Shown here: in pieces, positions 1,125 to 52,474 of the stretch | Layout of the letters: each line of letters starts with the position of its first letter | Position numbering within the stretch: position 1 is the first letter of the stretch | Origin: Candidatus Moraniibacteriota bacterium | GTDB lineage: Bacteria; Patescibacteriota; Minisyncoccia; Moranbacterales; UBA1568 | Direction: 5' to 3' | Assembly (NCBI GenBank): GCA_016699425.1 | Contig: CP064975.1 | Span: forward strand, 654,098 to 718,097 | Length of the DNA: 64,000 nt | Notes under the pieces: model-generated | The model's database searches: none | What the model saw: the letters and a program-made list of their open reading frames with translations, nothing else | Told to the model about the DNA's origin: nothing | Translations under genes and position numbers: made by a program

Positions 1125-1134
1125 ATGTCTTATA

Positions 1135-4100: not shown

Positions 4101-4521
4101 CGGGCACATAGTCGGGTTCTGTCAACACGGAGACGATCACATCGCCTTCCCTAACCTTCACCAAGTCACGGCGACCGGTGATGACACGTACCACACCCTT
4201 CACATGACCCCGGTACGCAACCGCCCCAGAAAACTCGTCGATATCTACATCGACCGTTTCAAACATCAGGTTATTTTCCGTCATCTTTACGGCTAACGTA
4301 GACATTGGATAGACACTGCCATCGAGTATGAATGCTCCTTCCGTTACCCGCATCTCCAGTTCATTCACCAGCTCATCGTCCCCTCCGGCCGCAAGCCTGG
4401 GTATCTCTGCAGCCGCGATGACATCAGAGAATCGTGCATATTCCGGTAGCAATTTCTCGAACGACTCCTTGAGGAACATCGCCATTGAAGCCTGAAATAT
4501 ATCGTGCTCATCGCATACCAA
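1135..4521 (-). CDS. Large multidomain protein with three PEP-utilizing swivel phosphohistidine domains, each preceded by a ~300 aa domain of unknown function
   Basis: Three copies of '...VTDEGG(V/I)(M/T)CHAAI(V/I)AREM(K/R)KPCIIGTKIATQ(V/I)L(H/K)DGDLVEVDA...' lie at roughly aa 100-200, 540-640 and 1030-1128. The more likely start is the ATG at 4485; the track start at 4521 is a TTG. The gene overlaps the 3' end of the upstream 1521-aa ORF in another frame. Confidence 0.6.
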   Translation of the reverse strand: MVCDEHDIFQASMAMFLKESFEKLLPEYARFSDVIAAAEIPRLAAGGDDELVNELEMRVTEGAFILDGSVYPMSTLAVKMTENNLMFETVDVDIDEFSGAVAYRGHVKGVVRVITGRRDLVKVREGDVIVSVLTEPDYVPAMQKATAFVTDEGGVMCHAAIVAREMKKPCIIGTKIATQVLHDGDLVEVDADNGVVRVVDKVEWDLLTNVNKWRFWGRWRMSIFGNGPWNCYARSRAYKQLVVPDGFLAGAINVDGFVYALEKDHQLFEVFIQKKFSEDRSWFQDFFSVCEESLRRANEAALGKDIPALMDAYADIACCSMLIHFCDRGLEPIVPEFAEECDLSSDTFAKLLIPFKPTYLMQYKEALRNLVPGEEEDFLKKYYWMGASYLGGKKLKREEIEHEKVMALAEGIQEPGENITFLGESLTEKLSVLRKLIYYRSVNAETINKVMCTCWDAFDALALKFGITRTELDLMMPAEIADLCRGGSLPENLIERSNSFGMSFIGDDFRLYFGKELEEKLKIFGSVDLSHQQSVSGTVAFKGHVTGVARIVIDVRDLEKIQAGDVVVANETMPEYIMGMKKASAFVTNLGGITSHAAIVAREMKKPCIIGTKIATQVLKDGDLVEVDACPSSGVADHGMVRVILSQASFGGSKLKKVVAREYVPLISDLFIQAYADFGTYQKIFLTDYYVRSAYVSGTYNYGPDATGFGEHLYEKSKNEKGYFDTMFTNIYRYGEEVYDVALALSKRDYRDMKKGDVLKLAREFFERYKIFSISLLGFYLESPIEKALRKIAQRAGNPDEALSFLSFPEKENLAAFEQENLYKIGAVVVAEEASSYAALSDQAKRLLVQHADEYGWINARGGLDESWSPQDIYDRIVGMDIDFEKESVENIERKKKHSVESEKYLQRLNLSGEEKEIVRVAKELVYFRTYRTDYLNRIISTVRPLLRAVADVYDMSLKDLMRLRVAEILDGTIPTKEEIENRKKDYFLATVTPGSTIFTADQEEIARLKEQYIDQPVKGGEVRGTVAFKGKIQGRVRLVVRRKDFDGVLEGDVLVTAMTTPDMMTIMKKAIAFVTDEGGVTCHAAIIAREMRKPCIIGTKIATQILHDGDLVEVDADQGVVRILEKT

Positions 4522-7500: not shown

Positions 7501-8930
7501 CTCACTGATGTGTCGAATCCGCTCTCCTTGAGCTTTCCATTTGCCTGTTCTTCGATCGCTTCACTCAGGAGATAGAGTGCATTACTCATCGGATATATCT
7601 TTGCAGTCGCCTGAGAGAGTACCTCTAGATACCGGGTAAGCTCTTCGGCCGTATAGTTTCTATCTGCTTCCAGTTCCTTTTCCAGGTCATAGAGATGCTT
7701 CATTTGCATCGAATACTCGTCATACAGATTCTCGAAGAAAGTATCAGAAAGTCTGTCTTTGAGCGCTTCGTACAATATATTTTTCGCACCGACTTGGATG
7801 TGCCCCTCAAACTGGTCGTCTTTCACAATATAAAACACCCCGACATCGGTACCGGAAATATTTCGGTACTGCTTCAGATATTCATCGTTGATCCACAGAG
7901 AGAGCCAGAGTGGCGGATGATACTCCTTAAAGGTCAGTTCGAATTTCAAATCTTTCTCGATAATATTTTCTTCGGTCGGAGCGTCGAGCGTCGTGATGGG
8001 CCGGCTCTGGACAATGTAAAACTTACCGTCTTCATACGCCCACTCGATATCACAGGGGAAACCATAGTGATTCTCTATCTTTATGATGAGATCGGAAAGC
8101 TCGAGGATTTGCTCATCGGAAAGTTTCTGCTGATTTTTTTTCTCGAGAGAAATTTCCTGCCACTCATTCCCTCCTGATCCGGCACGATAAATCCCCCGCT
8201 CTTGTTCAGCGATGTTTTTGTCGATGATACGGCGCGGCTCTTTCTCGACAACATAGCTATCCGGCGTGATCTGACCCGAGACGATCGCCTCACCGAGGCC
8301 AAAGCCGGCTTCGATGATGAGCTGATTGTGGTCCTCGGTCACCGGATGCACCGAAAACGCGATGCCGGAAACTTCCGACTCGACCATTTTCTGTACGACG
8401 ACCGCCACGGAAATCTTCTCTGCATGCAATCCTTTTTCGAAACGATAGAAGACGGCGCGGGGTGTGAACAAAGACGCCCAGCACCGCTGCACATTCTGAA
8501 GGAGCGTCGCCTCGGTCGTATTCAGGAAACTGTCGAGCTGCCCGGCCCAGGCAGCGCTCGCCGAGTCTTCGGCCGTCGCGCTCGATCGCACCGCCACGAA
8601 TGGTGCGTCCAGTTTTCTGAACGTCTCGAGGACTTCACTCGCGATATCCTCCGGCATCTTCGCCTCGAGGATAAATTTCTGGATTTTCTCCGAGGCGTGC
8701 TCGACACTCCGCATCTCGTCTGTCTTCACGGTATGCAGGATCGCATCGATCTCCACACTGAGATCGGTTTCGTCGAGGAACCGTTCGAACGCGTCAGCGA
8801 GCAAGACGAACCCAGGCGGCACGGGTATCCCCGCTCGAGTCATCTCCCCGAGTGACGCCCCCTTTCCACCCGCGATCGCGGCATTATTCTTTGAAAGCTG
8901 TTTAAAATCTCTTACAAATCCCATAAGCAT
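4365..8930 (-). CDS. PEP-synthase-like (PpsA/PPDK N-domain) ATP-binding protein fused to two (unknown domain + swivel phosphohistidine domain) modules; no PEP/pyruvate TIM-barrel domain
   Basis: The N-terminal ~330 aa align to the E. coli PpsA nucleotide-binding domain: 'AIAGGKGASLGEMTRAGIPVPPGFVL', 'AVRSSATAEDSASAAWAGQLDSFLN' and 'DIEWAYEDGKFYIVQSRPITTL'. Swivel domains sit at ~aa 690-790 ('TDTGGATSHAAIVSRELNIPCIVGTKIATQVLHDGDLVEVDADHGV') and ~1290-1390 ('TDTGGITCHAAIVSRELKIPCVVGTKIATQVLKDGDLVEVDADNGV'). The last ~40 aa look like out-of-frame translation (Arg/Ser-rich). Confidence 0.65.
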   Translation of the reverse strand: MLMGFVRDFKQLSKNNAAIAGGKGASLGEMTRAGIPVPPGFVLLADAFERFLDETDLSVEIDAILHTVKTDEMRSVEHASEKIQKFILEAKMPEDIASEVLETFRKLDAPFVAVRSSATAEDSASAAWAGQLDSFLNTTEATLLQNVQRCWASLFTPRAVFYRFEKGLHAEKISVAVVVQKMVESEVSGIAFSVHPVTEDHNQLIIEAGFGLGEAIVSGQITPDSYVVEKEPRRIIDKNIAEQERGIYRAGSGGNEWQEISLEKKNQQKLSDEQILELSDLIIKIENHYGFPCDIEWAYEDGKFYIVQSRPITTLDAPTEENIIEKDLKFELTFKEYHPPLWLSLWINDEYLKQYRNISGTDVGVFYIVKDDQFEGHIQVGAKNILYEALKDRLSDTFFENLYDEYSMQMKHLYDLEKELEADRNYTAEELTRYLEVLSQATAKIYPMSNALYLLSEAIEEQANGKLKESGFDTSVSAYIYPKRATYLGQHHVDAVALKERYFKDTQPSTADVENLRKSDPSFGEAFSAFAAKYAYLTALNLGKRTPESFIPDIASAVHTGLKREPVIPSVIQTEVEYLSHILFFKDEISTYVVPYTKFAFERLWDNCAQTLRCSIAELQELHIPDIQRALRGEREGMKELMDKRRQATLYFHVPFDDIEISEGDEAVERVALLKAQYIDHLETPDQNVISGKIGCHGYARGVVKIIRSSREIQQFQEGQVLVTEYTAPEFVPAMKKALAVVTDTGGATSHAAIVSRELNIPCIVGTKIATQVLHDGDLVEVDADHGVVRVIERASEKSDDVQSRPITTLRQEANGTRERKFSIFVEDRDVPLNPWCVLNDVFRKSLSELSHGDLPPLDNLFYFEKEVVLWGADADQFSKAGKYFSHKLKENPAFLDDISNGLNNSFEFIKKFSRELIDSDLSKKTSRELFALYDENYRTWIDMWAWGLVGQFIDMGEEKLSDKVKNDVWKKLEKFGNPEIIFSKLVSPTEPNVLTAEINAVLNLARDVKNDKLQEERLLRAKTYTELPKGIRDKLEALSVNFGWLQYYYLGPAAKPDYYFYLLKRKIPTAVEDEIIKREQESRDLKDLQARACEGLSEEEVSTINSLKDLSLLKELRKEYSFLLNFAMDRWYEEVSKRFSLNKLHTRYLLPKEFRKMLVDGGLSVTKEEMKKRYTCCSYIMVDGKDEIYSGDEAKGMKALFSMAEDKDIDEMGTLKGAVAYHGGAKGTVKIVNSKHDLVKFNEGDILVSISTNPSLVPAMNKAAAIVTDTGGITCHAAIVSRELKIPCVVGTKIATQVLKDGDLVEVDADNGVVRMIERVGRRGHTGNEQEISERDDVAQNNESSDPSTTTPQVLSKFFERDGRPLMYMMIWYQSDKEGLERFTRQSISHTIMLVPPKGRARSVWYDAAELAEIEAEALKRINADSVLRKRMIDHTESQWQKVVPYLRGEKKIEDVAEFGRLYADVCAFWYAMSTIYFRLQWRCSSRSRSRNCYRNMHDSLMSSRLQRYPGLRPEGTMSW

Positions 8931-19092: not shown

Positions 19093-19884
19093 GTGGCCAT
19101 GAAATTCCAGTCTCTGTCTGTTAAACCAATATGGGGGATGTCAGGCGTCCAGAACTTCTTCGGTGGGGGCTATCCCTTCCACTGGATGTACCAGGCACTC
19201 TTCGGAAAACGCTTTACCTTTGAAGATGTGCTCTTCGTGGCCAAGACAACGACCCTTAAGCCAAACCAGGGAAACATGCCCATGGAGACCGATGGAGTCA
19301 CCCCCCGTGAGCTCCGACCGAAATGCATCGTCTGCGGCCCCTGGCAATTCCTCATGGGAGTGATGTTGAACGCCGTCGGCCTCAGTGGACCCGGCGCAGA
19401 ACAACTCCTACGACGGAACAGCTGGCAGGATCGGGAGGACGGACCATTCATGATTTCCTTCATGTCGATCACCAAAGGTGCCGATGAGGTTGAGAGCGTA
19501 CGATTACACCTGGAAGAGTTCAAGGAATTCGTAAAACTCCTGGCCGAGCAGAAGTTCAAGTCACGCATGATCTTGCAAATCAACGTGACCTGCCCAAATG
19601 TCGGCGCGACACAACAATCAAAAGCTCGCTTCCTCCAGGAATGCCAAGGCTACCTCGCACTGACAGAACAGTACTTGCCTGGGATCCTAGTCATCTTCAA
19701 GGTCAATGTCTACACCGACATCGACACTCTGGTAAAACTCTCCTCACATCCGCAATTCGCTGGGGTATGCGTCTCCAATACGCTTCCCTGGGCAACACTG
19801 ACACGCTGGCAGCAAATCCGGTACTTCCCGTCGAGTATCTTCACCGGCCGATCCCCACTCTACCAATTCGGTGGTGGTGGGCTT
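19093..19884 (+). pseudogene. pyrD: Dihydroorotate dehydrogenase, 5' portion (aa 1-264), interrupted by an IS insertion. The 3' portion resumes at 21097..21330
   Basis: 'NAVGLSGPGAEQLL' matches the DHOD N(A)xGLxNxG motif and the protein has a TIM-barrel pattern. The reading frame continues exactly across the IS target-site duplication into '...SGRPLLPLVEDWVRRARRAGFEDHINAGGGILHPKDVNRLRKAGADSVSIGSVATLRPW...', the canonical DHOD C-terminus. Confidence 0.7.
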
Positions 19885-20987
19885 GTTACCGTTACCTTTT
19901 CAGTTGATAGTAGGGCGCTTTTTTCAAAAAGTTTTACTGCTTCTACGCCTAGTTTTACTAATGTCTCAGGCCAGCGAGCCTGTTTTTTGATACTCAAAGA
20001 GAGTGAAGGGTAACCGTTCAAATATTTAAATTTAGCTTCACAATCTGTAAAAGGCTTGGTTCTCCTCCGTATCATCCACGCATTCAACCAACACTGAGCC
20101 GAAGCAAAACTCTGAAAACCCTTGATCGTCTTCAGCCTCCCATTGAGATGGGAATTGTAGAGTTCAATGAGATTGGTGTTGTTGGGACAGCCTGGCAGCA
20201 GCAAGTAATTGAAGAGTTCCTCCTGCCGGTACGCTATCTCACTTACGATGTTTTTGAGCAGACGTTTCTCTCTCTTGATGCTCGCGGCAAAAGATCGAAT
20301 GGCGTTCGTCACATCCTCTCGTTCTCCAAACACGCTCTCCTTGAGAGCGTAAAAGAAGGGCCGGTATCGCTCTTCACTCCGCACCCGTAAAGCCACCCGG
20401 ATATTCTCCAGGTAGTGGTTGTGGCAGAGCTGCAGCCGAGCCGACGGAAAAACCTTCAGGAGAGCCTTTTTCAGGCCAGAGCGGTCATCGGCGACCACGA
20501 TCTGAAGATCATAGCCAAGTTGCTTCACTTGATGGAAGAAACGTGAGAAGGACACCTCATCTTCCGCTGTATACAAAGCCCCGAAGGGAATATCGTGGGT
20601 CAAGTAATCAATGCCGTAGAGAAAAGGAATCTTTCTCGCAAAGCCTTTGACCGCCACATACTTCCCATCCATGACAAGGATGCCCGAGAAGCGTCTCGGG
20701 TCACAGAGGGTTTGCGTCAGAGCGTCATTGGAAGGAAGTTGTGCTAATTCTCTTGTAACTCTCACGAAGGCTTGTTTTCCCGAGAGACCATATTCATCTC
20801 CTAATTTACGAAACGGTACCCCATCAATATGCTCGATCCACAGCAGTCTCGGATCATGCCCGAAGTAACGAGAAAAAGAATGTTCACAAGCACGACACAG
20901 GTAGTGATGGCTGTAGCCTTGGGAGCCATTCTTCACCGTCTCACGACTGCTGCAGCGGGGACAGTGACGTGACCATTTTTTTGACAT
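19860..20987 (-). CDS. IS1-family transposase (fused InsA-like zinc-finger/HTH + DDE domain)
   Basis: The N-terminus 'CPRCSSRETVKNGSQGYSHHYLCRACEHSFS' resembles the IS1 InsA zinc finger 'CPSCS...RNGKS..GHQRYLC..C...'. The ORF lies inside the IR/TSD-delimited element. Confidence 0.65.
   Translation of the reverse strand: MSKKWSRHCPRCSSRETVKNGSQGYSHHYLCRACEHSFSRYFGHDPRLLWIEHIDGVPFRKLGDEYGLSGKQAFVRVTRELAQLPSNDALTQTLCDPRRFSGILVMDGKYVAVKGFARKIPFLYGIDYLTHDIPFGALYTAEDEVSFSRFFHQVKQLGYDLQIVVADDRSGLKKALLKVFPSARLQLCHNHYLENIRVALRVRSEERYRPFFYALKESVFGEREDVTNAIRSFAASIKREKRLLKNIVSEIAYRQEELFNYLLLPGCPNNTNLIELYNSHLNGRLKTIKGFQSFASAQCWLNAWMIRRRTKPFTDCEAKFKYLNGYPSLSLSIKKQARWPETLVKLGVEAVKLFEKSALLSTEKVTVTSPPPPNW
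19876..19884. repeat. Left copy of the 9-bp target-site duplication GGTGGGCTT
   Basis: An identical 9-mer sits immediately outside both IS termini. Joining the flanks restores the pyrD ORF. Confidence 0.7.
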
Positions 20988-39678: not shown

Positions 39679-40434
39679 CTATTTCCGTGCAATGGCGCGG
39701 AAGTAGAGGTCAACGTCCGAGATCCACTTCCGGACGCTTTCGGGTGAATGACCCGCACAAGATGATCCACATTTCCAAATAACCAGATTTGCCGGTTCGC
39801 TCGTCTGACGAAGGGCCGTGAGTTCTTGGAGCCGACCGCCGATAGCGTGCACCGCCTCGGCTGATTCGCCGAAACAGCCATGTCCCATCGCGATGCCACG
39901 CGCACCCGCACCCTTGTAGCCCCAGTAATTGAAACAGTCATCGCCCGATGCTGTCCGTGGCACCCGTTTCCCCCAATTACTCTCTTTCTTGGCGATCCCA
40001 ACGATGAGACCGGCGATATCCCGATCGTACTCGGCAATCACCGGGACCATCGCTTCAATCGGGTATCCCGACACGATTGCCCGGAGTTCAGCTTCAAAGG
40101 AAGCCTTCTCACCGCTCGGGGGCATGTCCCGCTCTGCCTGATCAGAAGCGACTGTCACAGCCCGTCGGAAAGCCGCCTCACAGGGATTGGTCTCAACCTT
40201 ATCTGCTTTCGGGGCCTTGGCAAAGAAGTGATAGTCCCGCTGCCAATCGCACAGGCTCGCACGAGACAAAGGGTCATCAGACTGCGCCTCCGAACCCGAA
40301 TCGCTCGCTCCATCTGCTGTCTGGCCGAGGGAAAGGAAGAGTACTCCGACGAGACTGAGTGTCTGGCATGATCGCAGGATCCGGCCGCGCTTGTGTCGTC
40401 GCCTACCCATCGAAACCAGCTGGGGAATTCGCAT
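39679..40434 (-). CDS. Secreted/membrane-anchored protein of unknown function; paralog of 40644..41633
   Basis: Its C-terminal 140 aa align with the neighbour at roughly 50-55% identity (by-eye estimate): 'KESNWGKRVP...DCFNYWGY(K/R)G...GHGCF...IWKCGSSCAGHSPESVRKWISDVDLYF'. An N-terminal signal/TM segment is present. Confidence 0.45.
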   Translation of the reverse strand: MRIPQLVSMGRRRHKRGRILRSCQTLSLVGVLFLSLGQTADGASDSGSEAQSDDPLSRASLCDWQRDYHFFAKAPKADKVETNPCEAAFRRAVTVASDQAERDMPPSGEKASFEAELRAIVSGYPIEAMVPVIAEYDRDIAGLIVGIAKKESNWGKRVPRTASGDDCFNYWGYKGAGARGIAMGHGCFGESAEAVHAIGGRLQELTALRQTSEPANLVIWKCGSSCAGHSPESVRKWISDVDLYFRAIARK

Positions 40435-40643: not shown

Positions 40644-41633
40644 CTACTCAAGCGGACCGCCCTCAGCTTGGTTCAATTCCTTGAAATACATGTCCACGTC
40701 GGCGATCCACTTCCGGACACTCTCCCGGCTATGGCCGTCACAGCTATAGCCACATTTCCAGATAATCATCTTGGCCGGAGTATCGATCTTGGATGAATAG
40801 ATAAGAGACTCGATCCGAAGCGCAACCGTGTCGACGGCATCCTTACGACTATTGAAGCAGGTGTGTCCACCCGTTCCCATGAGCCGCCGCACCCCCCGAT
40901 ACCCCCAATAATTGAAGCAGTCCTGACCGTCCAAGACTGGCACCCGCTTCCCCCAATTACTCTCTTTCTTGCCGATGCCAATGAGGAAGGCCGCAACAAT
41001 TCGATCCTTCTCGAGGATATAGGGTAACATGTCTTCAATCGGATACCCCTTCACCAATTCATGAATCTGATCACTGTACTCTTCCTTTTCTGCCTCGCTG
41101 AAAAATTGGAGGAAGAGATCATCATTCGGATCATACTTCTTCTTCTCTTCGGAGACTTCGTTCGCTATTTTGTCTGATTCGTCCGTCGCGACTGCCACCA
41201 CCGCCGGAGCTGGTGAGCCTGCATTCGCCTCATCCGCTCCGATATCCTTGATGACTGACATCGACACCATGCCAAAGCTCACGCCCGCAAAGAGTGAAGC
41301 ATAGAGTGCTTTCTTGGGCGACAAATTTCCCGGTGCTGGCAGCCAGCGACCCAAGCGCCGACTGAAACGACGTGACACGACAAAGACCCGCCGAAACAGC
41401 ATCAGTTTCTTCCACTTGCGTTGGAACCCGAAAAAACTCTCGCGCGCGCCAGTGTGTTCCTTCAAAAGTACCGCGTCAAGCTGTCGCCGGGCGCGAATCA
41501 TCGCCGGTGAGACGAGTGGGCGAGGCGCCAAACCCGGCCGCGGTGAGCGGTATTCATGACCATGAGCGACGCCATCGAACAGCATCTTGGCGTGCGATAT
41601 TGATTTTGCTTTGGGCGGAAAAATTTCACGCAT
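40644..41633 (-). CDS. Secreted/membrane-anchored protein of unknown function; paralog of 39679..40434
   Basis: Shares the conserved C-terminal domain 'KKESNWGKRVP..DGQDCFNYWGYRG...GGHTCF...IWKCGYSCDGHSRESVRKWIADVDMYF' with the neighbour at 39679..40434. Confidence 0.45.
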   Translation of the reverse strand: MREIFPPKAKSISHAKMLFDGVAHGHEYRSPRPGLAPRPLVSPAMIRARRQLDAVLLKEHTGARESFFGFQRKWKKLMLFRRVFVVSRRFSRRLGRWLPAPGNLSPKKALYASLFAGVSFGMVSMSVIKDIGADEANAGSPAPAVVAVATDESDKIANEVSEEKKKYDPNDDLFLQFFSEAEKEEYSDQIHELVKGYPIEDMLPYILEKDRIVAAFLIGIGKKESNWGKRVPVLDGQDCFNYWGYRGVRRLMGTGGHTCFNSRKDAVDTVALRIESLIYSSKIDTPAKMIIWKCGYSCDGHSRESVRKWIADVDMYFKELNQAEGGPLE

Positions 41634-46786: not shown

Positions 46787-48931
46787 TCAAGTCTCCTCGT
46801 CTTTCTCCTGCCGCGCTTCGTCGATGAGGGCTCGGACGGCACTCACATTGATATCCGGCTTGCGACGTATGGCCTTGAATTTTTTGGGTTCGATATGCTG
46901 TGCCTGAGAGAGTTTCATCGGTCGTTCAACTGAAGCATACACCCGGTGCTCCGAAGTGCGGTGATCTGTCCGGTTCGTCGGCCCATCTGTCGACTGTTGT
47001 CGGCCTGCAGGAGGGGTTTTCCCTGCGATCTGATTGCGCTCCCTGGCCACCGCTCGCTGATAGTCACGGAGACAGTCCTTGCAAAATGTCGGACGTGAGG
47101 CATCCGGCACAAACGGTACTTCGATCTCGAGACCACAAGTGGCACACACTGCCGGGTACAACACTTTCTCTGGGATGTTCACCGGCGCTTCGGTAGCCAA
47201 GGTCCCTTCGGCTGCCTCGAGCGTCGTGATAGCTGGCACGACTTCAGGTTTCGCTACAGACACCACCGGAGTCGGCATTGCTTCAAGGGGTTGGGTCGGG
47301 GTGTCCGACGACTCTTCTGGTAAATCAACAGCCACCAGCGGCGTCGCGACAGGTACCGAAACAGTTTCGGCTTTTACTCCTGGTTCCGCCATCACACGTG
47401 ACCGATCAGGCTCTGGCAGTTTCACTGGTATCGGCTGGGGAGCAATCGGCTTGGCCACTGGTTTTGGTGTCGGTGCTTCGACAACCCGTTCACGCTTCGT
47501 GATACTCTCGGTGCCATGCTGCGGCACACGCTCGCGCGGAGCCGGCCGAGGGGTCGGAGTACTCGGAGTACGTGAGGTAGTTGCTGGGCGCGGAGTGGCT
47601 GGTACTGCTAGCGGAGCACGAAGGGCTTGCTTCTCTTCTTCGGTCAGCATGCCGGTCCAGCGGCGGATCTTGTCCTCCACCTCTTCCCGCGCTGAAGCAT
47701 AGCGTTCTCGGGTCACTGCGATGACCTTGTCGTCGATACCCGGTGTCTCGACGAGGATCGGTGGCAAAGTCGTCGCCGAAAACGCATCCCCCGCGATCCC
47801 GTCGATCATGAGCTTCAGGTAGACCTGATACTTCGGCAAATTCACCATGTCATTCAACATGAAAACCGGCTCGAATTCTTTCTCGAGAAACTCCGCATCC
47901 ATCGCCCCGACGCGGAAGGAAATAATTGTCCCCGCGTTGCCGAAGATGGCGTCCCGGATCTCTTCTTCAAATTGAGTGATGTACTGATTGGCCAAGATGA
48001 GCGAGAGTCGATATTTACGTGCTTCTGAGAGGATGTTGGCAAATGAGAGGGTCGCAAAGTTCTGGAACTCATCGATGTAGAGGTAGAAGTCATTTCGCTC
48101 CTCCTCGGGCGTATCCACTCGGCCCATCGCGGCTTGCTGGATCTTCGTGACCATCATCGCGCCCAAGAGCGCTGTCGAGTCCTCACCAATCTTGCCCTTG
48201 GCGAGGTTCATGATGAGAATCTTCCTCTCGTCCATGATTTTCCGCACATCAAACGCGCTCGTCGGCTGGCCGATGATATTGCGGATGAGGCTATTCGAGG
48301 TGAACTGCCCGACCTTGTTCTGAATTGGCGAGATAACTTCCTGCAACACGCGCTCATTCCAACCGGCGAATTCGACAGTCCAGAATTGCTTCACTACCGG
48401 ATCGGTCACTTTCTCCATCACCCGCTCACGGTACGATTTGTCGACGAGGATGCGCATCACTCCCAAGAGCGTCGCACCCGGATATTCGAGGAGGGCGAGG
48501 ATGGCATTCCTGAGGATGTACTCAAGCCGCGGCCCCCACGAATCGGCCCAGATTTTCTTGAAGACACTGACGAGACCGGACGCGACGACTGAGCGTTGAT
48601 CGGCACCAACTTGCTCGAGCACATTGAAAGCGATCGGGAAGTCCTGGTCCGCCGGGTCGAAGTAGATAACGTCGTTGATACGCTCGGGCGGAATCGCCTT
48701 GATGAGTTTCAGGGCGACATCGCCGTGCGGGTCGATGAAGCAAATACCGTGACCCTGCTGGATATCCTGGATCGCCAGGTTCTCGAGCAAGTTGGTCTTA
48801 CCCATACCGGTCTTCCCCAAGATGTACATGTGCCGGCGCCGGTCATCGGCCTTGATACCGAAGACCCGCTCTTGATTGCGAAAATTGGTCTTAGCAAAGA
48901 CGGTAATCGGATTGGTATCGAGCTCGGACAT
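46787..48931 (-). CDS. FtsK/HerA/TraD-VirD4-like P-loop ATPase (DUF87/AAA_10-like) with a long Pro/Thr/Ala-rich linker and a C-terminal zinc ribbon
   Basis: Walker A 'HMYILGKTGMGKTNLL' and 'GICFIDPHGD' (compare TraD '...VDPNGD'), and Walker B 'FYLYIDEFQNF'. A low-complexity ~250 aa region (TPRPATTSRTPSTPTPRPAP...) ends in 'CATCGLEIEVPFVPDASRPTFCKDCL', a CxxC...CxxC ribbon. Confidence 0.55.
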   Translation of the reverse strand: MSELDTNPITVFAKTNFRNQERVFGIKADDRRRHMYILGKTGMGKTNLLENLAIQDIQQGHGICFIDPHGDVALKLIKAIPPERINDVIYFDPADQDFPIAFNVLEQVGADQRSVVASGLVSVFKKIWADSWGPRLEYILRNAILALLEYPGATLLGVMRILVDKSYRERVMEKVTDPVVKQFWTVEFAGWNERVLQEVISPIQNKVGQFTSNSLIRNIIGQPTSAFDVRKIMDERKILIMNLAKGKIGEDSTALLGAMMVTKIQQAAMGRVDTPEEERNDFYLYIDEFQNFATLSFANILSEARKYRLSLILANQYITQFEEEIRDAIFGNAGTIISFRVGAMDAEFLEKEFEPVFMLNDMVNLPKYQVYLKLMIDGIAGDAFSATTLPPILVETPGIDDKVIAVTRERYASAREEVEDKIRRWTGMLTEEEKQALRAPLAVPATPRPATTSRTPSTPTPRPAPRERVPQHGTESITKRERVVEAPTPKPVAKPIAPQPIPVKLPEPDRSRVMAEPGVKAETVSVPVATPLVAVDLPEESSDTPTQPLEAMPTPVVSVAKPEVVPAITTLEAAEGTLATEAPVNIPEKVLYPAVCATCGLEIEVPFVPDASRPTFCKDCLRDYQRAVARERNQIAGKTPPAGRQQSTDGPTNRTDHRTSEHRVYASVERPMKLSQAQHIEPKKFKAIRRKPDINVSAVRALIDEARQEKDEET

Positions 48932-48994
48932 ACTTCAGATGCGTTGATCTTTTAGAGGGAAAGAAATCGGCCTACCGAACGGCCAGAGTGCTCA

Positions 48995-50272
48995 TCATTG
49001 TACCGGCAAATTGCCCGGCGCGCCACCCCGCTTCGTCATGACGCGCGAGAACGACGGAGCGAGCACCTGCATATCCGGGAGGTGATAGATAGTTGCCAAT
49101 TCTTCGGATGAAAACATGAACCGGTTTTCCTGAGGATCGGGATCACGCGTGATATACCGGCGGAGGAGTCGGCGCTGCCGATACCGGAGACGCGGCTCGA
49201 CCATAACATAGCTCGCATAGGTCTTGGTGAGATCGTCTGGTATCATGCTATTCATCGCGAGATCATTGAATTGTTTGATGGCCCCGATAAACGCCGAGAC
49301 TCCCGTCGCTTTGGAAAAGTGCTCCTTCTTCCCAAGATAGACATGGCGCATTTTGATCTTGAACATCGGTTTCCCGATATTGCTCTCGAGCGCTTTCAGG
49401 ATATCCTTCTGTCCGGGTGTGAGACGGAATTCGACGGGCTGTTCCTCGGCTTTGGCCGCCTCCTCCTGGCTGGTCCACTCCAGTTCACTCCCCATCATGC
49501 CGGAAAACAGGTTATGAAAAACGTCAGCCAGGTCATGCCAAACGCGTGAAAATATTCCCGGCCGCTCGACTTCCTCATGACCGAGAAATTCTTCGATGGT
49601 TAGCGCGCCTTTCTTCGGGCCCCAGTCCTCCTTCACCGGCGTCGCGATGAATTGCAGCCAGAGATGCTGCCCCGGACCGAGCTTCCCCATGGTTTCGATC
49701 AGTCCGGCCATTGGGTCGAGCATCTTGCCGGTCACCGATTCCTCGAAAAATTTGTAGGTCCGAATTGGATAGAGATCGGGCTTGAGGAGCTTGAACTCCG
49801 TCCCCCAGAGGTCCCAGTCCTTGTTCGGCACGGTCCGCGGCACCTGCTTCGTATAATCCTCGGCTTCCACGATCTCGACATCCGGGTACTGGGCATAGAA
49901 ATGCGCTTCGACCAGATTGCGAAACGCCTTCTGCGTCCGGATGAACATATGGACCTTGCCCTCAGCACTCACGAGCTCGAGCGAAAAACTCACCGGGTAT
50001 TCACCGAGGATGAATTCTTCATACGCCGATGATGTTTTGATCACTCCAGCAAACCCAGAGTAGATGAGCTCCATCGGATGCGGGCTCTTCTCCAGCAGTT
50101 TCGGAGCGACGATCTCGAGCAGCACCCATTCGATCTTGCCCCCGAACACATTGTTCCGGCTATCGATCCAGAGAAATATGAAAATCGGGTAAAAAATGAA
50201 CGGAATGATATAGAACCAAACATCGCTTGCGACTGAAGCGATAGTGGCTATGTTATGGAAAAATTCGAACAT
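48995..50272 (-). CDS. Membrane-anchored protein of unknown function, probable partner of the downstream ATPase
   Basis: An N-terminal TM hairpin ('VWFYIIPFIFYPIFIFLWI'), then a ~370 aa soluble domain. It lies 63 bp upstream on the same strand as the ATPase. Confidence 0.4.
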   Translation of the reverse strand: MFEFFHNIATIASVASDVWFYIIPFIFYPIFIFLWIDSRNNVFGGKIEWVLLEIVAPKLLEKSPHPMELIYSGFAGVIKTSSAYEEFILGEYPVSFSLELVSAEGKVHMFIRTQKAFRNLVEAHFYAQYPDVEIVEAEDYTKQVPRTVPNKDWDLWGTEFKLLKPDLYPIRTYKFFEESVTGKMLDPMAGLIETMGKLGPGQHLWLQFIATPVKEDWGPKKGALTIEEFLGHEEVERPGIFSRVWHDLADVFHNLFSGMMGSELEWTSQEEAAKAEEQPVEFRLTPGQKDILKALESNIGKPMFKIKMRHVYLGKKEHFSKATGVSAFIGAIKQFNDLAMNSMIPDDLTKTYASYVMVEPRLRYRQRRLLRRYITRDPDPQENRFMFSSEELATIYHLPDMQVLAPSFSRVMTKRGGAPGNLPVQ

Positions 50273-50423: not shown

Positions 50424-51500
50424 TTACCGCTGCTTGTCAGAAAGAGAATAGATGTTCTTCCCAACCTTTGTGAAGAAGCTGTTGAGATTGATGATCACGG
50501 TCGAACGCTTTACTTGACGGACCTTCATGACCGCCTTCAGGAGTTCTTCACGCGTCATCGGTGTCTCGTGTTCCTTCAAAATGGACGAGAGTACCTCGCG
50601 GACCGTGCCCGGACGGAAACCCCAATCGGAGAGCGCATAGGTCCCGCGTCCGACCAAGACGAAACGCTGGTCCTTGATGAGTTCATTATGCACCGTCTGT
50701 GGATGCGTCTTCTTGCCGGTCTTGTAGAGGCCGTGTTCATCGATGAGACGAGCAATCTCACGGAAATGCAGTGGCTTCTTCATTACCTGGAGGATGAGGT
50801 GGGCGCGCTCGCGAGTTCCGCGCGGACGAACCGCACTCCAGTGCGAGAGACCATAGCGACCGAAAGCATTCTTCTCGATTTCAGCCGATGGCGCAATGAA
50901 TGACTCGAACGTCTCTTTCGTGAGGTCAGTGTCCCCCGACTGCTTCACATACATCGAATAGAGTTCTTCCAGTGACTGGACTTCACCAGATTTTTGAAGG
51001 AGGTTCGTTACTGACGTAATCATCGCTTCCCACTCGTCCAGCGAAAAAGCATCCGTTGTGACCACCAATTTCCGCTCGGCCGTCTCTTTGCTAATCTGGA
51101 CACCGGGAAATGCCGGGAGGAGCGCAAGCAGCGATTTTTGTTCTGATACTTTCCCTCCACCGAGGGCCGCGAGCAAATCATCCACGGACAGAATACCGCC
51201 GCGCGCCTGCACCGTCTCGATGACGCGCCTCACGAGAATGTGGTCACCTGCCTCTGCCATGACTTCCTTGACCCGCTTCATGATGACATCGACGATCTGA
51301 CGAACTCGTTCGCGCGTGATGCCGTGAGTCTTCCCGATTTCCTCAAGGGTCTTTTCCTGACCATCAGAAACACCATAACGCTCACGTGTGATAACTCCGG
51401 AACGCTCTGGGAAAGACGACAACAGAGCACCCAAAAGCTCTTCGGCAGAGCGGGTGCTTGACAGACGAGTGGAATCGATCGGTTTCCTTCTTTCAGCCAT
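50424..51500 (-). CDS. DNA-binding protein with an N-terminal sigma-70 region-4-like HTH and a C-terminal HARE-HTH-like winged helix
   Basis: 'EKTLEEIGKTHGITRERVRQIVDVIMKRV' is like RpoD region 4.2 ('TLEEVG..F.VTRERIRQIE'). The C-terminus 'LHFREIARLIDEHGLYKTGKKTHPQTVHNELIKDQRFVLVGRGTYALSDW' resembles HARE-HTH. No sigma region 2 is present. Confidence 0.45.
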   Translation of the reverse strand: MAERRKPIDSTRLSSTRSAEELLGALLSSFPERSGVITRERYGVSDGQEKTLEEIGKTHGITRERVRQIVDVIMKRVKEVMAEAGDHILVRRVIETVQARGGILSVDDLLAALGGGKVSEQKSLLALLPAFPGVQISKETAERKLVVTTDAFSLDEWEAMITSVTNLLQKSGEVQSLEELYSMYVKQSGDTDLTKETFESFIAPSAEIEKNAFGRYGLSHWSAVRPRGTRERAHLILQVMKKPLHFREIARLIDEHGLYKTGKKTHPQTVHNELIKDQRFVLVGRGTYALSDWGFRPGTVREVLSSILKEHETPMTREELLKAVMKVRQVKRSTVIINLNSFFTKVGKNIYSLSDKQR

Positions 51501-51617
51501 AAAAAACTTCAGTAATTAGCATTTCTGAGAACGCCTCATATTAACGCATATTACCATATTTTGTCAAGAGCCGTAATAGAACCGACATTCTCCGGTCCAG
51601 TTTCCTCTCGATCACAG

Positions 51618-51706: not shown

Positions 51707-52474
51707 ATGGCTGATTCTTCGACCGAACCCAATTCCCAAACTGCTCCGGACAATGGCAACAAGATCCAAGCCCTCCGGGACATGATTTTGAACGCTGAAC
51801 GCACCATCCAAGGAGCCAAGGCGATGCTGCTCCAGATTGAGGGAAAGAAGAAAACTGGCCGGCCGAAGAAGTCAGATGATGATGCGCTCGGGATTGTGGT
51901 TGAGGGTACCTTTGATGGCCAGATCATGCTCGGAACGGATGGCAAGCAATATCCTGTTCCCGCCAATTACGCGTCCAAGTCCAAACTCGTCGAAGGTGAC
52001 ATGCTGAAGCTCACCATCACTCCCGATGGCTCGTTCATCTACAAACAAATTGGACCGATTGACCGGCGCCATGCCATCGGCATCGTGAGTCAGGACGAAA
52101 ACGGCAATTACCACATCGTGGTTGAGGGTGAACCGTTTCGTGTCCTGCTCGCTTCCATCACCTATTTCCGAGCTGAGCCAGGTGATGAAGTCGCTGTCAC
52201 CATGCCCCGCGATCTCTCGGCCTCCTGGGTTGCGATCGAGAACATCCTGCAGAAAGGTGCTTTCGGAGCACCCGCCCCGATTGTGAAGCCCGCCGGCGAA
52301 CGCCACTTGAACGCCGACTGGAAGAAAGATCTCGCCGAAAAGAAACCAGTTGATACTCCAGTCCCAGCCGAACCAGCCGTCCCCGACGCGACCGCCAATG
52401 CCAACCTCTCCCCGCTCGATGCCTGGGTGAAAGACATGGAAGCGATCGAGAAGGAGATCGCCGAAGGACGCTAG
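51707..52474 (+). CDS. Hypothetical protein (255 aa)
   Basis: Protein-like composition with a C-terminal acidic/Pro-rich tail. No domain recognised. Confidence 0.4.
   Translation: MADSSTEPNSQTAPDNGNKIQALRDMILNAERTIQGAKAMLLQIEGKKKTGRPKKSDDDALGIVVEGTFDGQIMLGTDGKQYPVPANYASKSKLVEGDMLKLTITPDGSFIYKQIGPIDRRHAIGIVSQDENGNYHIVVEGEPFRVLLASITYFRAEPGDEVAVTMPRDLSASWVAIENILQKGAFGAPAPIVKPAGERHLNADWKKDLAEKKPVDTPVPAEPAVPDATANANLSPLDAWVKDMEAIEKEIAEGR

What the first reader, a model, noticed from the sequence alone, without database searches (positions are those of the whole stretch)
46787..50272. Two-gene module: a membrane-anchored protein plus a TraD/VirD4/HerA-like ATPase with a Pro/Thr-rich linker and C-terminal zinc ribbon
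The ATPase carries Walker A 'ILGKTGMGKT', the 'IDPHGD' block typical of conjugative coupling proteins and HerA/FtsK translocases, and Walker B 'LYIDEFQNF'. After these comes an ~250-aa low-complexity PT-rich spacer, and then a CxxCG...FxP..RP.FCxxC ribbon. The upstream partner has an N-terminal TM hairpin and a large domain of unknown function. No other type-IV-secretion or pilus genes are nearby. I infer a minimal DNA or protein translocation, uptake or partition module of the kind common in reduced genomes. A defence-system role (HerA-partner systems) cannot be excluded.
Basis: partly seen in the sequence, partly recalled or inferred. Interest (0 to 1): 0.55.

Follow-up and report, generated by a model that had tools for sequence, protein, structure and literature searches.

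The report
Split type-IV coupling ATPase of Patescibacteria
The two genes are the two halves of one conjugation-type "coupling" motor protein that is a single fused polypeptide in Gram-positive plasmids and Bacillus phages. In this ultra-small (CPR/Patescibacteria) bacterium it is a slowly evolving chromosomal core gene set, joined by a third gene for a DNA-binding protein and located away from any secretion-system genes.

Summary
The window comes from a Candidatus Moraniibacteriota genome.

- **ATPase (46787-48931, minus strand).** It is a VirD4/TrwB-type coupling-protein (T4CP) ATPase with no membrane segment. It carries a ~150-aa (not ~250-aa) disordered Pro/Ala/Val/Thr linker, a CxxC-x17-CxxC zinc ribbon and a conserved basic tail.
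- **Partner (48995-50272, minus strand).** It belongs to Pfam DUF8128. It is not an unrelated protein. It is homologous to the N-terminal domain of fused ~800-900-aa ATPases of Bacillus phage G and a Peribacillus conjugative-type plasmid. One PHROG profile covers both genes end to end. Its predicted fold matches only full-length VirB4 (TrwK).
- **Split point.** It maps onto a single linker of the fused proteins.
- **Conservation.** The pair is adjacent in 79/80 Moranbacteria genomes and in 56/68 diverse metagenome loci. A sigma-region-4 + HARE-HTH gene (50424-51500) usually lies upstream.
- **Context.** No T4SS, pilus, relaxase or mobile-element genes flank the module. The ATPase domain evolves more slowly than DnaX.

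Best reading: a domesticated, split coupling ATPase that acts as a membrane-tethered translocation motor. Its substrate (DNA or protein) and its channel are inferred, not shown. Novelty: a new variant of a known kind.

The parts
50424..51500 (-). Upstream gene of the cassette: 358-aa DNA-binding protein. It has a sigma-70 region-4 HTH (aa 28-79, nt 51264-51419) and a HARE-HTH winged helix (aa 231-293, nt 50622-50810).
   Evidence: Pfam Sigma70_r4 E 2.9e-9 and HARE-HTH E 1.5e-16. The N-terminal HTH matches region 4 of primary sigma factors in the PDB. It lies directly upstream of DUF8128 in 79/80 Moranbacteria loci, in the 4 retrieved loci of three distant Parcubacteria DUF8128 proteins, one of them Falkowbacteria, and in 38/63 diverse metagenome loci with room upstream.
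51538..51567 (-). Promoter-like site (TTGACA-18-TAATAT) 38 bp upstream of the HTH gene; a possible cassette promoter.
   Evidence: 10/12 match. The number of such sites in the region is not above the shuffled expectation, so this is only a candidate.
48995..50272 (-). DUF8128 (PF26449) protein, 425 aa. It is the detached N-terminal, VirB4-NTD-like half of the coupling ATPase, with its own membrane anchor.
   Evidence: Precomputed Pfam PF26449/DUF8128. PHROG phrog_5156 positions 78-358. hhalign to the phage G gp156 N-part, prob 95.6%, and to the Peribacillus 870-aa protein N-part, prob 97%. Foldseek against PDB: the top 13 hits are all TrwK/VirB4. Foldseek against BFVD: phage G gp156 E 1.3e-15.
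50159..50251 (-). N-terminal hydrophobic membrane anchor of DUF8128 (aa 8-38, IATIASVASDVWFYIIPFIFYPIFIFLWIDS).
   Evidence: It is the only Kyte-Doolittle window above 1.6 in any of the three proteins. AF2 predicts one long helix, aa 2-39. Coordinates checked.
49004..49021 (-). Invariant C-terminal 'AP.NLP' tail of DUF8128 (APGNLP, aa 418-423), at the split junction.
   Evidence: A418, P419, N421, L422 and P423 are invariant in 34 homologues. The tail is disordered in the model. The motif is repeated at the extreme C-terminus of long-tailed homologues. It aligns with the inter-domain linker of the fused Peribacillus and phage G proteins.
48932..48994 (-). 63-bp spacer between the two halves of the split gene.
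   Evidence: Separate ORFs are also present in 79/80 and 56/68 related loci, so the split is ancestral and not a frameshift artefact.
47627..48931 (-). T4CP-type ATPase domain (aa 1-435): nucleotide-binding domain plus all-alpha insert. Walker A at 48794-48817, IDPHGD at 48719-48736, Walker B at 48056-48082.
   Evidence: Pfam TrwB_AAD_bind (aa 29-323), TraG-D_C, DUF87 and T4SS-DNA_transf above threshold. NCBIfam TraD/VirD4-like. PDB sequence hits DotL and TrwB. phrog_5156 positions 408-818, E 1.3e-61. Foldseek order DotL, Cagbeta, TrwB, then HerA, then VirB4. The catalytic motifs are invariant in the aligned homologues.
47168..47626 (-). Disordered Pro/Ala/Val/Thr-rich tether (aa 436-588).
   Evidence: Composition. 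pLDDT is about 30. Length and sequence vary among homologues: median 31% identity, alignable in only 21 of 80 loci.
47066..47161 (-). CxxC-x17-CxxC treble-clef zinc ribbon (aa 591-622).
   Evidence: PF23477 E 9e-11 and TIGR04272 E 7e-12. pLDDT is about 80. The cysteines are invariant or nearly so. Small archaeal proteins with this domain bind zinc experimentally (PMC12704099).
46787..47065 (-). C-terminal tail (aa 623-714) with the conserved basic motif PMKLSQAQHIEPKKFK (46874-46921) and a terminal helix. A candidate adaptor- or substrate-docking element.
   Evidence: P671, L674, Q676, P682, K683, K684, F685, K686, R700 and I703 are invariant in 20 homologues. The function is inferred by analogy with the C-terminal tails of TraD and DotL.

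Best explanation
The locus encodes a VirD4-type type-IV coupling protein (T4CP) that has been split into two polypeptides and fixed in the Patescibacteria chromosome as a core gene set.

**Proposed mechanism**
- DUF8128 (48995-50272) supplies what the ATPase lacks: a membrane anchor and a cytoplasmic domain with a VirB4-N-terminal-domain-like fold.
- Its invariant C-terminal AP.NLP tail sits at the point where the fused relatives continue into the ATPase. It presumably docks onto the N-terminus of the soluble ATPase (46787-48931).
- The assembled protein would form a membrane-tethered ring, hexameric like TrwB. The ring would use ATP to feed a polymer substrate (DNA, or possibly unfolded protein) into a membrane channel.
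- The likely channel is the VirB4/VirB6-type T4SS, which most Patescibacteria encode elsewhere in the genome.
- The zinc ribbon and basic tail sit on a ~150-aa flexible tether. They would act as the substrate or adaptor recruitment arm, as the C-terminal tails of TraD and DotL do.
- The co-transcribed sigma-region-4/HARE-HTH protein is the candidate DNA-binding adaptor. It is the only DNA-binding partner in the cassette, where plasmid and phage relatives have a MOBC (Replic_Relax) relaxase gene beside the ATPase gene.

**Shown here**
- Family assignment of the ATPase.
- Homology of DUF8128 to the N-domain of fused relatives.
- The exact split point.
- Conservation of the cassette.
- Housekeeping genomic context and strong purifying selection.

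**Inferred**
- Physical interaction of the two halves.
- Ring (hexamer) formation.
- Identity of the substrate.
- Link to the T4SS.
- Roles of the tail and of the HTH protein.
For: **1. The ATPase is a T4CP.** Pfam TrwB_AAD_bind, TraG-D_C and T4SS-DNA_transf score above their gathering thresholds. NCBIfam gives TraD and VirD4-like hits. PDB sequence hits are DotL and TrwB. Foldseek ranks DotL (E 2.6e-8), Cagbeta and TrwB ahead of HerA, with the VirB4 C-terminal domain only at rank 36.

**2. The two genes are halves of one protein.**
- One PHROG profile, phrog_5156 (824 positions), is matched by the partner at positions 78-358 and by the ATPase at positions 408-818 (E 1.3e-61).
- In phage G gp156 (825 aa), the C-half matches the ATPase (6e-43) and the N-part matches DUF8128 (hhalign prob 95.6%; Foldseek E 1.3e-15).
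- In the Peribacillus plasmid 870-aa protein, the N-part matches DUF8128 (prob 97%, E 7e-11) and aa 346-759 match the ATPase.
- The end of the partner (SEELATIYHLPD...APGNLPVQ) and the start of the ATPase align to contiguous residues of the fused proteins, about 281-345.

**3. The DUF8128 fold resembles the VirB4 N-terminal domain.**
- The top 13 PDB Foldseek hits are all full-length TrwK/VirB4.
- The structure that holds only the VirB4 C-terminal domain (4ag6) is not among the 50 listed matches, and neither are TrwB or HerA.
- The model also matches phage G gp155, which Pfam identifies as VirB4-like.

**4. The cassette is co-conserved.**
- The pair is adjacent in 79/80 Moranbacteria loci; the one miss is at a contig end.
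- The same HTH-DUF8128-ATPase order occurs in distant Parcubacteria, one of them Falkowbacteria, with different outer neighbours.
- Among diverse metagenome loci, the ATPase lies directly downstream in 56/68 and the HTH gene upstream in 38/63.

**5. It behaves as a core gene.**
- Median identity across 80 Moranbacteria species: ATPase domain 79%, DnaX N-domain 57%, DUF8128 58%.
- The neighbours are mnmA, a MutY-type glycosylase gene, dnaX, gtrA and lgt.
- G+C is the same as in the flanks.

**6. Fused relatives sit in conjugation-type loci.**
- Embleya: PrgI/VirB3, VirB4, the fused T4CP, Replic_Relax, NlpC/P60.
- Peribacillus: fused T4CP, Replic_Relax, then TcpE further on.
- SPO1 and B. subtilis plasmids: fused T4CP followed by Replic_Relax.
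- PF13814 (Replic_Relax) is the MOBC relaxase family, which pairs with VirD4-type coupling proteins (PMC5357655).

**7. Published background.** Quinonero-Coronel et al. 2025 found 5,713 VirD4-like T4CP homologues in 2,918 of 3,035 Patescibacteria genomes. Only 148 lay near virB4, and the function was left open (PMC12102498).
Against: - No channel, VirB4, pilin or relaxase gene lies in the 64-kb window, so coupling to a T4SS is untested for this genome.
- The authors of PMC12102498 report that the T4CP homologue of Southlakia epibionticum was not essential for epibiotic growth while the T4SS genes were. This argues against an obligatory T4SS partnership. Whether that homologue belongs to the DUF8128-associated type is unknown.
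- In 12 of 68 diverse loci DUF8128 is not followed by the ATPase. Examples are HTH-DUF8128-GT4-DUF4012 and SecD-SecF-DUF8128-Dus.
- The AF2 model of the ATPase is poor (pLDDT 53). The TM-scores of the VirB4 matches are low (0.34-0.39).
- DUF8128 shows no detectable sequence similarity to VirB4 or to TrsD.
- The HTH protein is not homologous to Replic_Relax. Its sigma-region-4 domain could instead point to an RNA-polymerase-related role.
Confidence: 0.6

Rival explanations
1. An autonomous housekeeping DNA pump, independent of any T4SS. The HTH protein binds chromosomal or incoming DNA. The membrane-tethered ATPase ring moves that DNA during division, segregation, uptake or export, in an FtsK/SpoIIIE-like or Ced-like manner.
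For: - T4CP-like genes occur in more Patescibacteria genomes (2,918 of 3,035) than virB4 (2,417 of 3,035) and are rarely next to it.
- The ATPase domain is exceptionally conserved.
- The cassette includes a DNA-binding protein.
- In distant Parcubacteria the cassette lies beside murB, a Mur ligase gene and divIC.
- There are weak NCBIfam hits to the archaeal DNA-import ATPases CedB and CedD.
Against: - There is no match to the FtsK_SpoIIIE family and no FtsK gamma domain.
- The closest characterised relatives are conjugative coupling proteins that pair with VirB4 and a relaxase.
- A single-helix anchor cannot form a DNA channel, so a separate pore is still needed.
- Saccharibacteria at least do encode FtsK (papers listed).
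Confidence: 0.22
2. An anti-phage defence module of the HerA/MADS kind, in which a T4CP/HerA-like ATPase works with a sensor or effector partner.
For: The PADLOC mad8 (MADS) profile matches the ATPase at E 6e-19. There are weak HerA and DndH hits. Foldseek also finds the defence HerA complexes 8zir and 8sub at lower rank.
Against: - Neither DUF8128 nor any neighbour matches a defence family. The only other PADLOC hit is the generic HTH of the upstream protein.
- No nuclease, SIR2 or methylase partner is present.
- The module has a fixed position and is vertically conserved in 79/80 species of the class and across Parcubacteria.
- The ATPase is more conserved than DnaX. Defence islands show the opposite pattern.
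- The match to phrog_5156 is far stronger (1e-61 against 6e-19).
Confidence: 0.05
3. A decaying remnant of an integrated conjugative or mobilisable element, or of a prophage, with no current cellular role.
For: The nearest non-CPR relatives are on plasmids and phages. The gene is split. No relaxase is present.
Against: - The reading frames are intact and the catalytic motifs invariant in the aligned homologues.
- Identity across species is 66-97%.
- The split point is conserved phylum-wide.
- No integrase, repeat or composition anomaly is seen at the locus. The nearest transposase gene is 26 kb away.
Confidence: 0.03

Closest known systems
VirD4-type coupling proteins with a large N-terminal domain, encoded next to MOBC (Replic_Relax) relaxases on Firmicutes and Actinobacteria plasmids (Peribacillus NZ_CP068052 870 aa; Embleya NZ_CP108778 812 aa; B. 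subtilis ~25-kb plasmids)
   Same: The ATPase domain is homologous (29-33% identity, E 1e-43 to 1e-70). The N-domain is homologous to DUF8128 (prob 97% for Peribacillus; a collinear but weak match for Embleya). The ELAxxxHLP...P.P junction motif is shared.
   Different: - Those proteins are single polypeptides. The B. subtilis plasmid version is split at a different point (171 aa + 696 aa).
- They lie beside a relaxase gene, and the Embleya and Peribacillus examples also lie among conjugation genes (PrgI/VirB3, VirB4, TcpE).
- The window's version is chromosomal and split after the N-domain.
- It has its own TM anchor, a PT-rich tether, a zinc ribbon and a basic tail.
- It has an HTH neighbour instead of a relaxase.
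Bacillus phage proteins of PHROG phrog_5156 (phage G gp156; the SPO1 gp27.4 group)
   Same: The fused architecture covers both window genes. Fold matches to the partner have E 1e-15 to 1e-12. Phage G gp156 is preceded by a VirB4-like gp155. SPO1 gp27.4 is followed by a Replic_Relax protein.
   Different: These are fused proteins with no N-terminal membrane anchor of their own. SPO1 has a separate 73-aa TM-hairpin gene upstream. They are phage-borne and of unknown function, and they lack the zinc-ribbon tail.
Classical T4CPs: TrwB (R388), TraD (F), VirD4, DotL/IcmO, Cagbeta
   Same: They share the nucleotide-binding domain with an all-alpha insert and the Walker A / DPxGD / Walker B motifs. A C-terminal extension that recruits adaptors (TraD-TraM, DotL-IcmSW) is established knowledge for TraD and DotL and is used here only as an analogy.
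   Different: Classical T4CPs carry their own N-terminal two-helix TM domain and are encoded with T4SS and relaxase genes. Here the anchor is on a separate protein with a ~380-aa VirB4-NTD-like domain, and no T4SS genes are nearby.
VirB4 (TrwK) with VirB3, and the TrsD + TrsE pair of pGO1
   Same: The overall layout is the same: a membrane-associated N-terminal domain followed by a TrwB-like ATPase. The DUF8128 model matches only full-length TrwK in the PDB. In pGO1 a stand-alone protein related to the VirB4 N-part (TrsD) sits directly upstream of the VirB4 ATPase gene TrsE (PMC12102498). This is a precedent for a detached N-domain.
   Different: The ATPase domain is nearer to T4CPs than to VirB4. 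DUF8128 has no detectable sequence similarity to TrsD or to any PDB chain.
The 'orphan' T4CP homologues of Patescibacteria reported by Quinonero-Coronel et al. 2025 (PMC12102498)
   Same: The window's ATPase is almost certainly one of these. They are VirD4-like, present in ~96% of the genomes surveyed, and rarely near virB4.
   Different: None of the passages of that paper read here mentions DUF8128, the split, the fused phage and plasmid relatives or the HTH neighbour. A full-text search for PF26449 or DUF8128 found no paper.

Membership tests
VirD4/TraD/TrwB type-IV coupling proteins (T4CP) | RecA-like nucleotide-binding domain with Walker A, Walker B and the DPxGD/E block | tested here: met
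   The motifs lie at aa 39-46, 66-71 and 284-292 and are invariant in the aligned homologues. Pfam T4SS-DNA_transf, TraG-D_C and TrwB_AAD_bind score above their gathering thresholds.
VirD4/TraD/TrwB type-IV coupling proteins (T4CP) | All-alpha domain inserted between Walker A and Walker B | tested here: met
   The TrwB_AAD_bind match spans aa 29-323. The AF2 model shows helices at aa 110-234 between the P-loop strand and the next core strand (moderate confidence). TrwB, DotL and Cagbeta are the top structural matches.
VirD4/TraD/TrwB type-IV coupling proteins (T4CP) | N-terminal transmembrane domain in the same polypeptide | tested here: not met
   The 714-aa protein has no hydrophobic window. 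The anchor is on the separate DUF8128 protein.
VirD4/TraD/TrwB type-IV coupling proteins (T4CP) | Encoded with, or functionally tied to, a T4SS (VirB4, VirB6) and a relaxase | tested here: not met
   None is found in the 64-kb window. The rest of the genome could not be searched. Fused relatives on plasmids do meet this feature.
VirD4/TraD/TrwB type-IV coupling proteins (T4CP) | Curated NCBIfam equivalog scores (TraD, VirD4 CD1115) | tested here: not met
   The scores are 51.5 bits against a cut-off of 366, and 35.1 against 250. The protein is a divergent branch, not an equivalog.
VirB4/TrwK ATPases | N-terminal domain of the VirB4 fold preceding the ATPase domain | tested here: inconclusive
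   The DUF8128 model hits only full-length TrwK chains (E 1e-4 to 1e-3, prob 1.0) but with TM-scores of 0.34-0.39. It also matches the VirB4-like phage G gp155. No sequence-level support was found.
VirB4/TrwK ATPases | ATPase domain of the VirB4 clade (AAA_10 / CagE_TrbE_VirB / P-loop_TraG profiles) | tested here: not met
   There is no AAA_10 or P-loop_TraG hit. TIGR00929 VirB4 scores only E 6e-4. The VirB4 C-terminal domain 4ag6 ranks 36th, behind the T4CPs and HerA.
FtsK/SpoIIIE translocases | FtsK_SpoIIIE motor domain (PF01580), multi-helix N-terminal TM domain, gamma winged-helix domain | tested here: not met
   PF01580 is not among the hits at E <= 1. The ATPase has no TM segments. There is no gamma domain; the C-terminus is a zinc ribbon.
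HerA-type ATPases (HerA-NurA; defence HerA systems; MADS mad8) | HerA core with HAS-barrel and a nuclease or effector partner encoded alongside | tested here: not met
   Only local DUF87 (aa 32-71) and weak HerA_C hits are found. PADLOC mad8 scores E 6e-19, but no other system gene is present. The neighbours are housekeeping genes.
Pfam DUF8128 (PF26449) | Match to the family model | tested here: met
   The exact protein and its listed relatives carry the precomputed hit PF26449.1, named DUF8128. The local Pfam copy lacks this model.
CxxC-x17-CxxC zinc ribbon (TIGR04272 / PF23477 zf_Tbcl_2) | Two CxxC pairs 17 residues apart, with a model score above the cut-off | tested here: met
   C596/C599 and C617/C620. 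Scores are 44.8 bits against a cut-off of 36 and 41.7 against 27. Zinc binding by this protein was not tested. It has been shown for M. mazei small proteins.

The most novel reading that the evidence does not exclude
The cassette (sigma-region-4/HARE-HTH DNA binder + DUF8128 anchor + T4CP motor with a tethered zinc-ribbon arm) is a self-standing machine that handles DNA or nucleoprotein. It would be specific to Patescibacteria and near-universal among them, and derived from a conjugative coupling protein. It would work independently of the VirB4-type T4SS, for example by exporting or importing DNA across the single membrane at the contact with the host cell, or by tethering and segregating the chromosome.
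Probability: 0.2. Interest if true: 0.75.

Novelty: new variant of a known kind. Interest (0 to 1): 0.52.

Why it matters
Patescibacteria (CPR) make up a large share of bacterial diversity. Their T4SS is the first shown to be essential for the organism that carries it. That system was reported to lack a recognisable coupling protein in its gene cluster (PMC10633639). Thousands of 'orphan' VirD4-like genes are scattered elsewhere in these genomes with no assigned role (PMC12102498).

This analysis makes three points that bear on that gap:
- These orphans are only half of a protein.
- The other half is the widespread DUF8128 family, which supplies the membrane anchor and a VirB4-like N-domain.
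- A specific DNA-binding protein travels with them.

This gives DUF8128 a testable function and explains how a T4CP without a TM domain can reach the membrane. It links the module to MOBC-type conjugation modules and to unexplained Bacillus phage genes (SPO1 gp27.4, phage G gp156). It also defines concrete constructs for interaction, ATPase and genetic tests in the tractable Saccharibacteria systems.

Tried and rejected
- **DUF8128 versus PDB by sequence.** Profiles A1 and A5 found no meaningful hit. Only the fold comparison links DUF8128 to VirB4.
- **DUF8128 versus TrsD of pGO1.** No similarity. The TrsD parallel is one of architecture only.
- **ATPase profile versus pGO1 TrsE (VirB4) and TrsK (VirD4).** Only short, inconclusive matches around Walker B, because the targets were single sequences.
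- **N-domains of the Haladaptatus 1193-aa and Bradyrhizobium 708-aa homologues.** Neither is significantly similar to DUF8128. The haloarchaeal alignment is collinear and keeps an ELAxxxHL motif, so it is suggestive only.
- **CPR HTH protein versus Replic_Relax (MOBC) relaxases.** No homology. The idea that it is a degenerate relaxase is rejected.
- **IMG/VR scan for DUF8128.** Nothing found, but the search patterns were specific to the Moranbacteria clade.
- **Literature search for PF26449 / DUF8128.** No papers found.
- **AF2 model of the full ATPase.** Low confidence (pLDDT 53). It was used only for ranking folds.
- **FtsK-replacement idea.** No FtsK signature is present, and Saccharibacteria do have FtsK.
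- **Operon signals.** Promoter-like and terminator-like sites are not more frequent than in shuffled sequence.
- **Genome-contig scan.** The wider distribution had to be taken from the representative search, one further homologue search and the metagenome scan.

Full report
**1. What is in the sequence**

The two ORFs named in the finding are present on the minus strand. The first, at 46787..48931, encodes 714 aa. The second, at 48995..50272, encodes 425 aa. A 63-bp spacer separates them.

The exact 425-aa protein is on record as a hypothetical protein, IPJ68_03550. It comes from a Candidatus Moraniibacteriota (CPR/Patescibacteria) assembly with a 1.22-Mb contig.

- Walker A GKTGMGKT, aa 39-46
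- IDPHGD, aa 66-71
- Walker B LYIDEFQNF, aa 284-292
- two CxxC pairs at aa 596-599 and 617-620

The low-complexity spacer runs from aa 436 to 588, about 153 aa rather than ~250. It is rich in P, A, V and T, disordered in the AF2 model, and barely alignable among relatives.

The partner protein has one hydrophobic stretch of about 30 aa at its N-terminus. The ATPase has none.

**2. The ATPase**

Pfam gives TrwB_AAD_bind (aa 29-323), TraG-D_C, DUF87 and T4SS-DNA_transf. All four score above their gathering thresholds. It also gives zf_Tbcl_2 for aa 591-622.

NCBIfam gives TraD and VirD4-like models and the CxxC-x17-CxxC domain. The conjugation equivalogs are far below their curated cut-offs.

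Sequence hits in the PDB are DotL/IcmO and TrwB.

The AF2 model of the full protein is poor, with a mean pLDDT of 53. Even so, Foldseek ranks the coupling proteins DotL, Cagbeta and TrwB first. HerA comes next, and the VirB4 C-terminal domain appears only at rank 36.

No FtsK_SpoIIIE match appears.

The protein is therefore a divergent VirD4-type coupling-protein ATPase. It lacks the N-terminal transmembrane domain that classical members carry.

**3. The partner is the missing half**

The partner has no match in the local Pfam or NCBIfam copies. It and its listed relatives carry the precomputed family PF26449, named DUF8128.

Three independent lines show that it is homologous to the N-terminal domain of single-chain relatives of the ATPase.

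(a) One PHROG profile covers both genes. The profile is phrog_5156, 824 positions long and of unknown function. The partner matches positions 78-358 (E 6.5e-8). The ATPase matches positions 408-818 (E 1.3e-61).

(b) Sequence profiles link the partner to two fused proteins.
- Bacillus phage G gp156 (825 aa) matches the ATPase in its C-half (6e-43). It matches DUF8128 in its N-part (hhalign prob 95.6%).
- A Peribacillus plasmid protein of 870 aa matches DUF8128 over aa 54-311 (prob 97%, E 7e-11). It matches the ATPase over aa 346-759.

(c) The AF2 model of the partner (pLDDT 72, pTM 0.70) has these best viral matches:
- phage G gp156, E 1.3e-15
- a 913-aa protein of Bacillus phage JL, which is also among the phage hits of the ATPase search, E 9.7e-13
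- phage Slash, E 2e-12
- phage G gp155, E 1.1e-6

The end of the partner (SEELATIYHLPD...APGNLPVQ) and the start of the ATPase (MSELDTNPITVF...GKTGMGKT) align to contiguous residues of the Peribacillus protein, about 281-345. The break therefore falls in one inter-domain linker, and nothing is lost.

B. subtilis ~25-kb plasmids carry the same protein broken at a different place, as 171 aa + 696 aa. Splitting has thus happened more than once in this family.

**4. Fold of DUF8128**

Against the PDB, the 13 best Foldseek matches are all full-length TrwK/VirB4 chains of the R388 T4SS. E-values run from 1e-4 to 1e-3, with probability 0.99-1.0 and TM-scores of 0.34-0.39.

The structure that holds only the VirB4 C-terminal domain (4ag6) is hit by the ATPase model. 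It is not among the 50 listed matches of the DUF8128 model, and neither are TrwB or HerA.

I infer from this that the similarity is to the VirB4 N-terminal domain. The tool gives no residue ranges, so this remains an inference.

Phage G gp155 also matches DUF8128 structurally. By Pfam it is itself VirB4-like (P-loop_TraG, AAA_10), which fits the inference.

No sequence-level similarity to VirB4 or to TrsD was detectable.

**5. Conservation and context**

*Moranbacteria.* In 80 genomes the ATPase gene follows DUF8128 in 79; the one exception is at a contig end. A 358-aa gene precedes DUF8128 in 79. That gene encodes a sigma-70 region-4 HTH plus a HARE-HTH winged helix.

*Distant Parcubacteria.* In members that share about 30-35% identity with the window's DUF8128, one of them a Falkowbacteria genome, the same three-gene order recurs. 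The outer neighbours differ: ClpB, MurB, glycosyltransferases, DivIC.

*Diverse metagenome loci.* Among 80 loci, the ATPase lies directly downstream in 56 of the 68 that have room. The HTH gene lies upstream in 38 of 63. The second figure is a lower bound, because tblastn may miss divergent copies. Exceptions include HTH-DUF8128-GT4-DUF4012 and SecD-SecF-DUF8128-Dus.

*Family size.* The DUF8128 family has 2,404 representatives at 50% identity clustering with E <= 1e-3. None of the 150 listed is fused to an ATPase.

*The window.* Every ORF of 150 aa or more that was scanned has a housekeeping Pfam match or no match. The matches include pyruvate-phosphate-dikinase-like proteins, ProRS, HtrA, SUF, POR, exonuclease VII, MnmA, a MutY-type glycosylase, DnaX, GtrA and Lgt. 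No T4SS, pilus, relaxase or integrase gene was found. G+C at the locus equals that of the flanks.

*Rate of evolution.* Median identities across the 80 Moranbacteria species:

| Region | Median identity |
|---|---|
| ATPase domain | 79% |
| DnaX N-terminal domain | 57% |
| DUF8128 | 58% |
| Zinc-ribbon tail | 50% |
| HTH protein | 45% |
| Tether | ~31% |

This is the pattern of a constrained core gene. It is not the pattern of a defence island or of a decaying mobile element.

**6. What the fused relatives do**

On an Embleya plasmid the gene order is PrgI/VirB3, XF1762, VirB4-like ATPase, fused T4CP (812 aa), Replic_Relax, NlpC/P60.

On the Peribacillus plasmid the order is fused T4CP, Replic_Relax, then a conjugal transfer protein and TcpE further on.

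In SPO1 and on B. subtilis plasmids a Replic_Relax protein follows the ATPase.

PF13814 (Replic_Relax) is the MOBC relaxase family, which is known to pair with VirD4-type coupling proteins (PMC5357655; see also PMC3756968).

The window's genes therefore descend from the coupling protein of a monoderm-type conjugation or mobilisation module.

**7. Relation to the literature**

Quinonero-Coronel et al. 2025 found VirD4-like T4CP homologues in 2,918 of 3,035 Patescibacteria genomes, 5,713 copies in all. Only 148 lay near virB4.

They noted that the Southlakia copy is not essential, whereas the T4SS genes are. They left open an exaptation of the T4CP.

Wang et al. [quoted passage not shown]

None of the passages I read in these papers mentions DUF8128, the split or the HTH neighbour. 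A full-text search for PF26449 or DUF8128 found no paper.

**8. Mechanism (inferred)**

- DUF8128 sits in the membrane through its N-terminal helix. The residues that follow the helix (DSRNNVFGGK) are basic, which fits a cytoplasmic location for the large domain.
- Its AP.NLP tail and N-domain bind the ATPase and rebuild the fused architecture.
- The ATPase forms a ring, as TrwB does. The ring drives a polymer substrate towards a channel that must be encoded elsewhere.
- The zinc ribbon and the conserved PKKFK-containing tail, on a flexible tether, would recruit substrate or adaptor.
- The HTH protein is the obvious candidate adaptor.
- What is transported, and whether the T4SS is the channel, cannot be decided from this window.

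**9. Verdict**

The module is a split, domesticated, three-gene T4CP cassette. It is a new variant of a known kind and of moderate interest.

I put my confidence in the identity and split-gene claims at about 0.85, and in the specific T4SS-coupling function at about 0.45. The combined figure I report is 0.6.

Noticed in passing
window 1135-4521 (-) and 4365-8930 (-); also 21-1217 (-): Two very large ORFs (1128 and 1521 aa) carry repeated PEP-utilizers mobile domains: three copies in one, and PPDK_N plus two copies in the other. A third ORF has one copy. They lie in a stretch of lower G+C (0.44-0.49, against ~0.55 elsewhere). This is an unusual multi-swivel-domain arrangement.
   Followed up: no
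window 39679-40434 (-) and 40644-41633 (-): Two adjacent paralogues share a ~140-aa C-terminal domain (50% identity, E 4e-51) with the motifs KKESNWGKRVP...DCFNYWGY...WKCG.SC.GHS. Neither matches any Pfam family.
   Followed up: partly
window 51707-52474 (+): A divergently transcribed 255-aa protein has no Pfam match. It is conserved next to the cassette in 60/80 Moranbacteria loci at a median of 62% identity, higher than DnaX. It is absent from the distant Parcubacteria loci examined.
   Followed up: partly
DUF8128 homologues P0323, P0338, P0349, P0390, P0259; window 49004-49021: Long-tailed DUF8128 proteins repeat the invariant 'AP.NLP' motif a second time at their extreme C-terminus, after a 60-230-aa acidic, low-complexity extension. 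This suggests a short linear docking motif present in one or two copies.
   Followed up: no
L120:1578-6293 and L146:1560-6347: In two metagenome lineages DUF8128 is not next to the ATPase. It follows secD (fused to a PPIase domain) and secF directly. This is a possible hint of a link to protein export.
   Followed up: partly
L081:5980-7167 (Sulfitobacter mediterraneus plasmid NZ_CP081110): The closest non-CPR relative of the ATPase domain (42.6% identity over 385 aa) is a stand-alone 395-aa protein. It has no N-domain, anchor or tail. It sits among recombinase and transposase genes on an alphaproteobacterial plasmid.
   Followed up: no
L083:2513-6284 (phage SPO1 genes 27.5-27.3): SPO1 carries a compact trio: gp27.5 (73 aa, TM hairpin), gp27.4 (906-aa fused DUF8128-like + T4CP-like ATPase) and gp27.3 (Replic_Relax/MOBC-like). 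This is a conjugation-type mobilisation module inside a lytic phage genome. The GenBank record gives no product name for any of the three genes.
   Followed up: partly
window 19860-20987 (-): A Mutator-family (MULE) transposase ORF is the only mobile-element gene found in the window. It lies 26 kb from the module.
   Followed up: no
L001-L080 record titles: Many GTDB representative genomes that carry this Moranbacteria-type locus are titled 'uncultured Bdellovibrionales bacterium' in their records. This looks like mislabelling of Patescibacteria MAGs.
   Followed up: no
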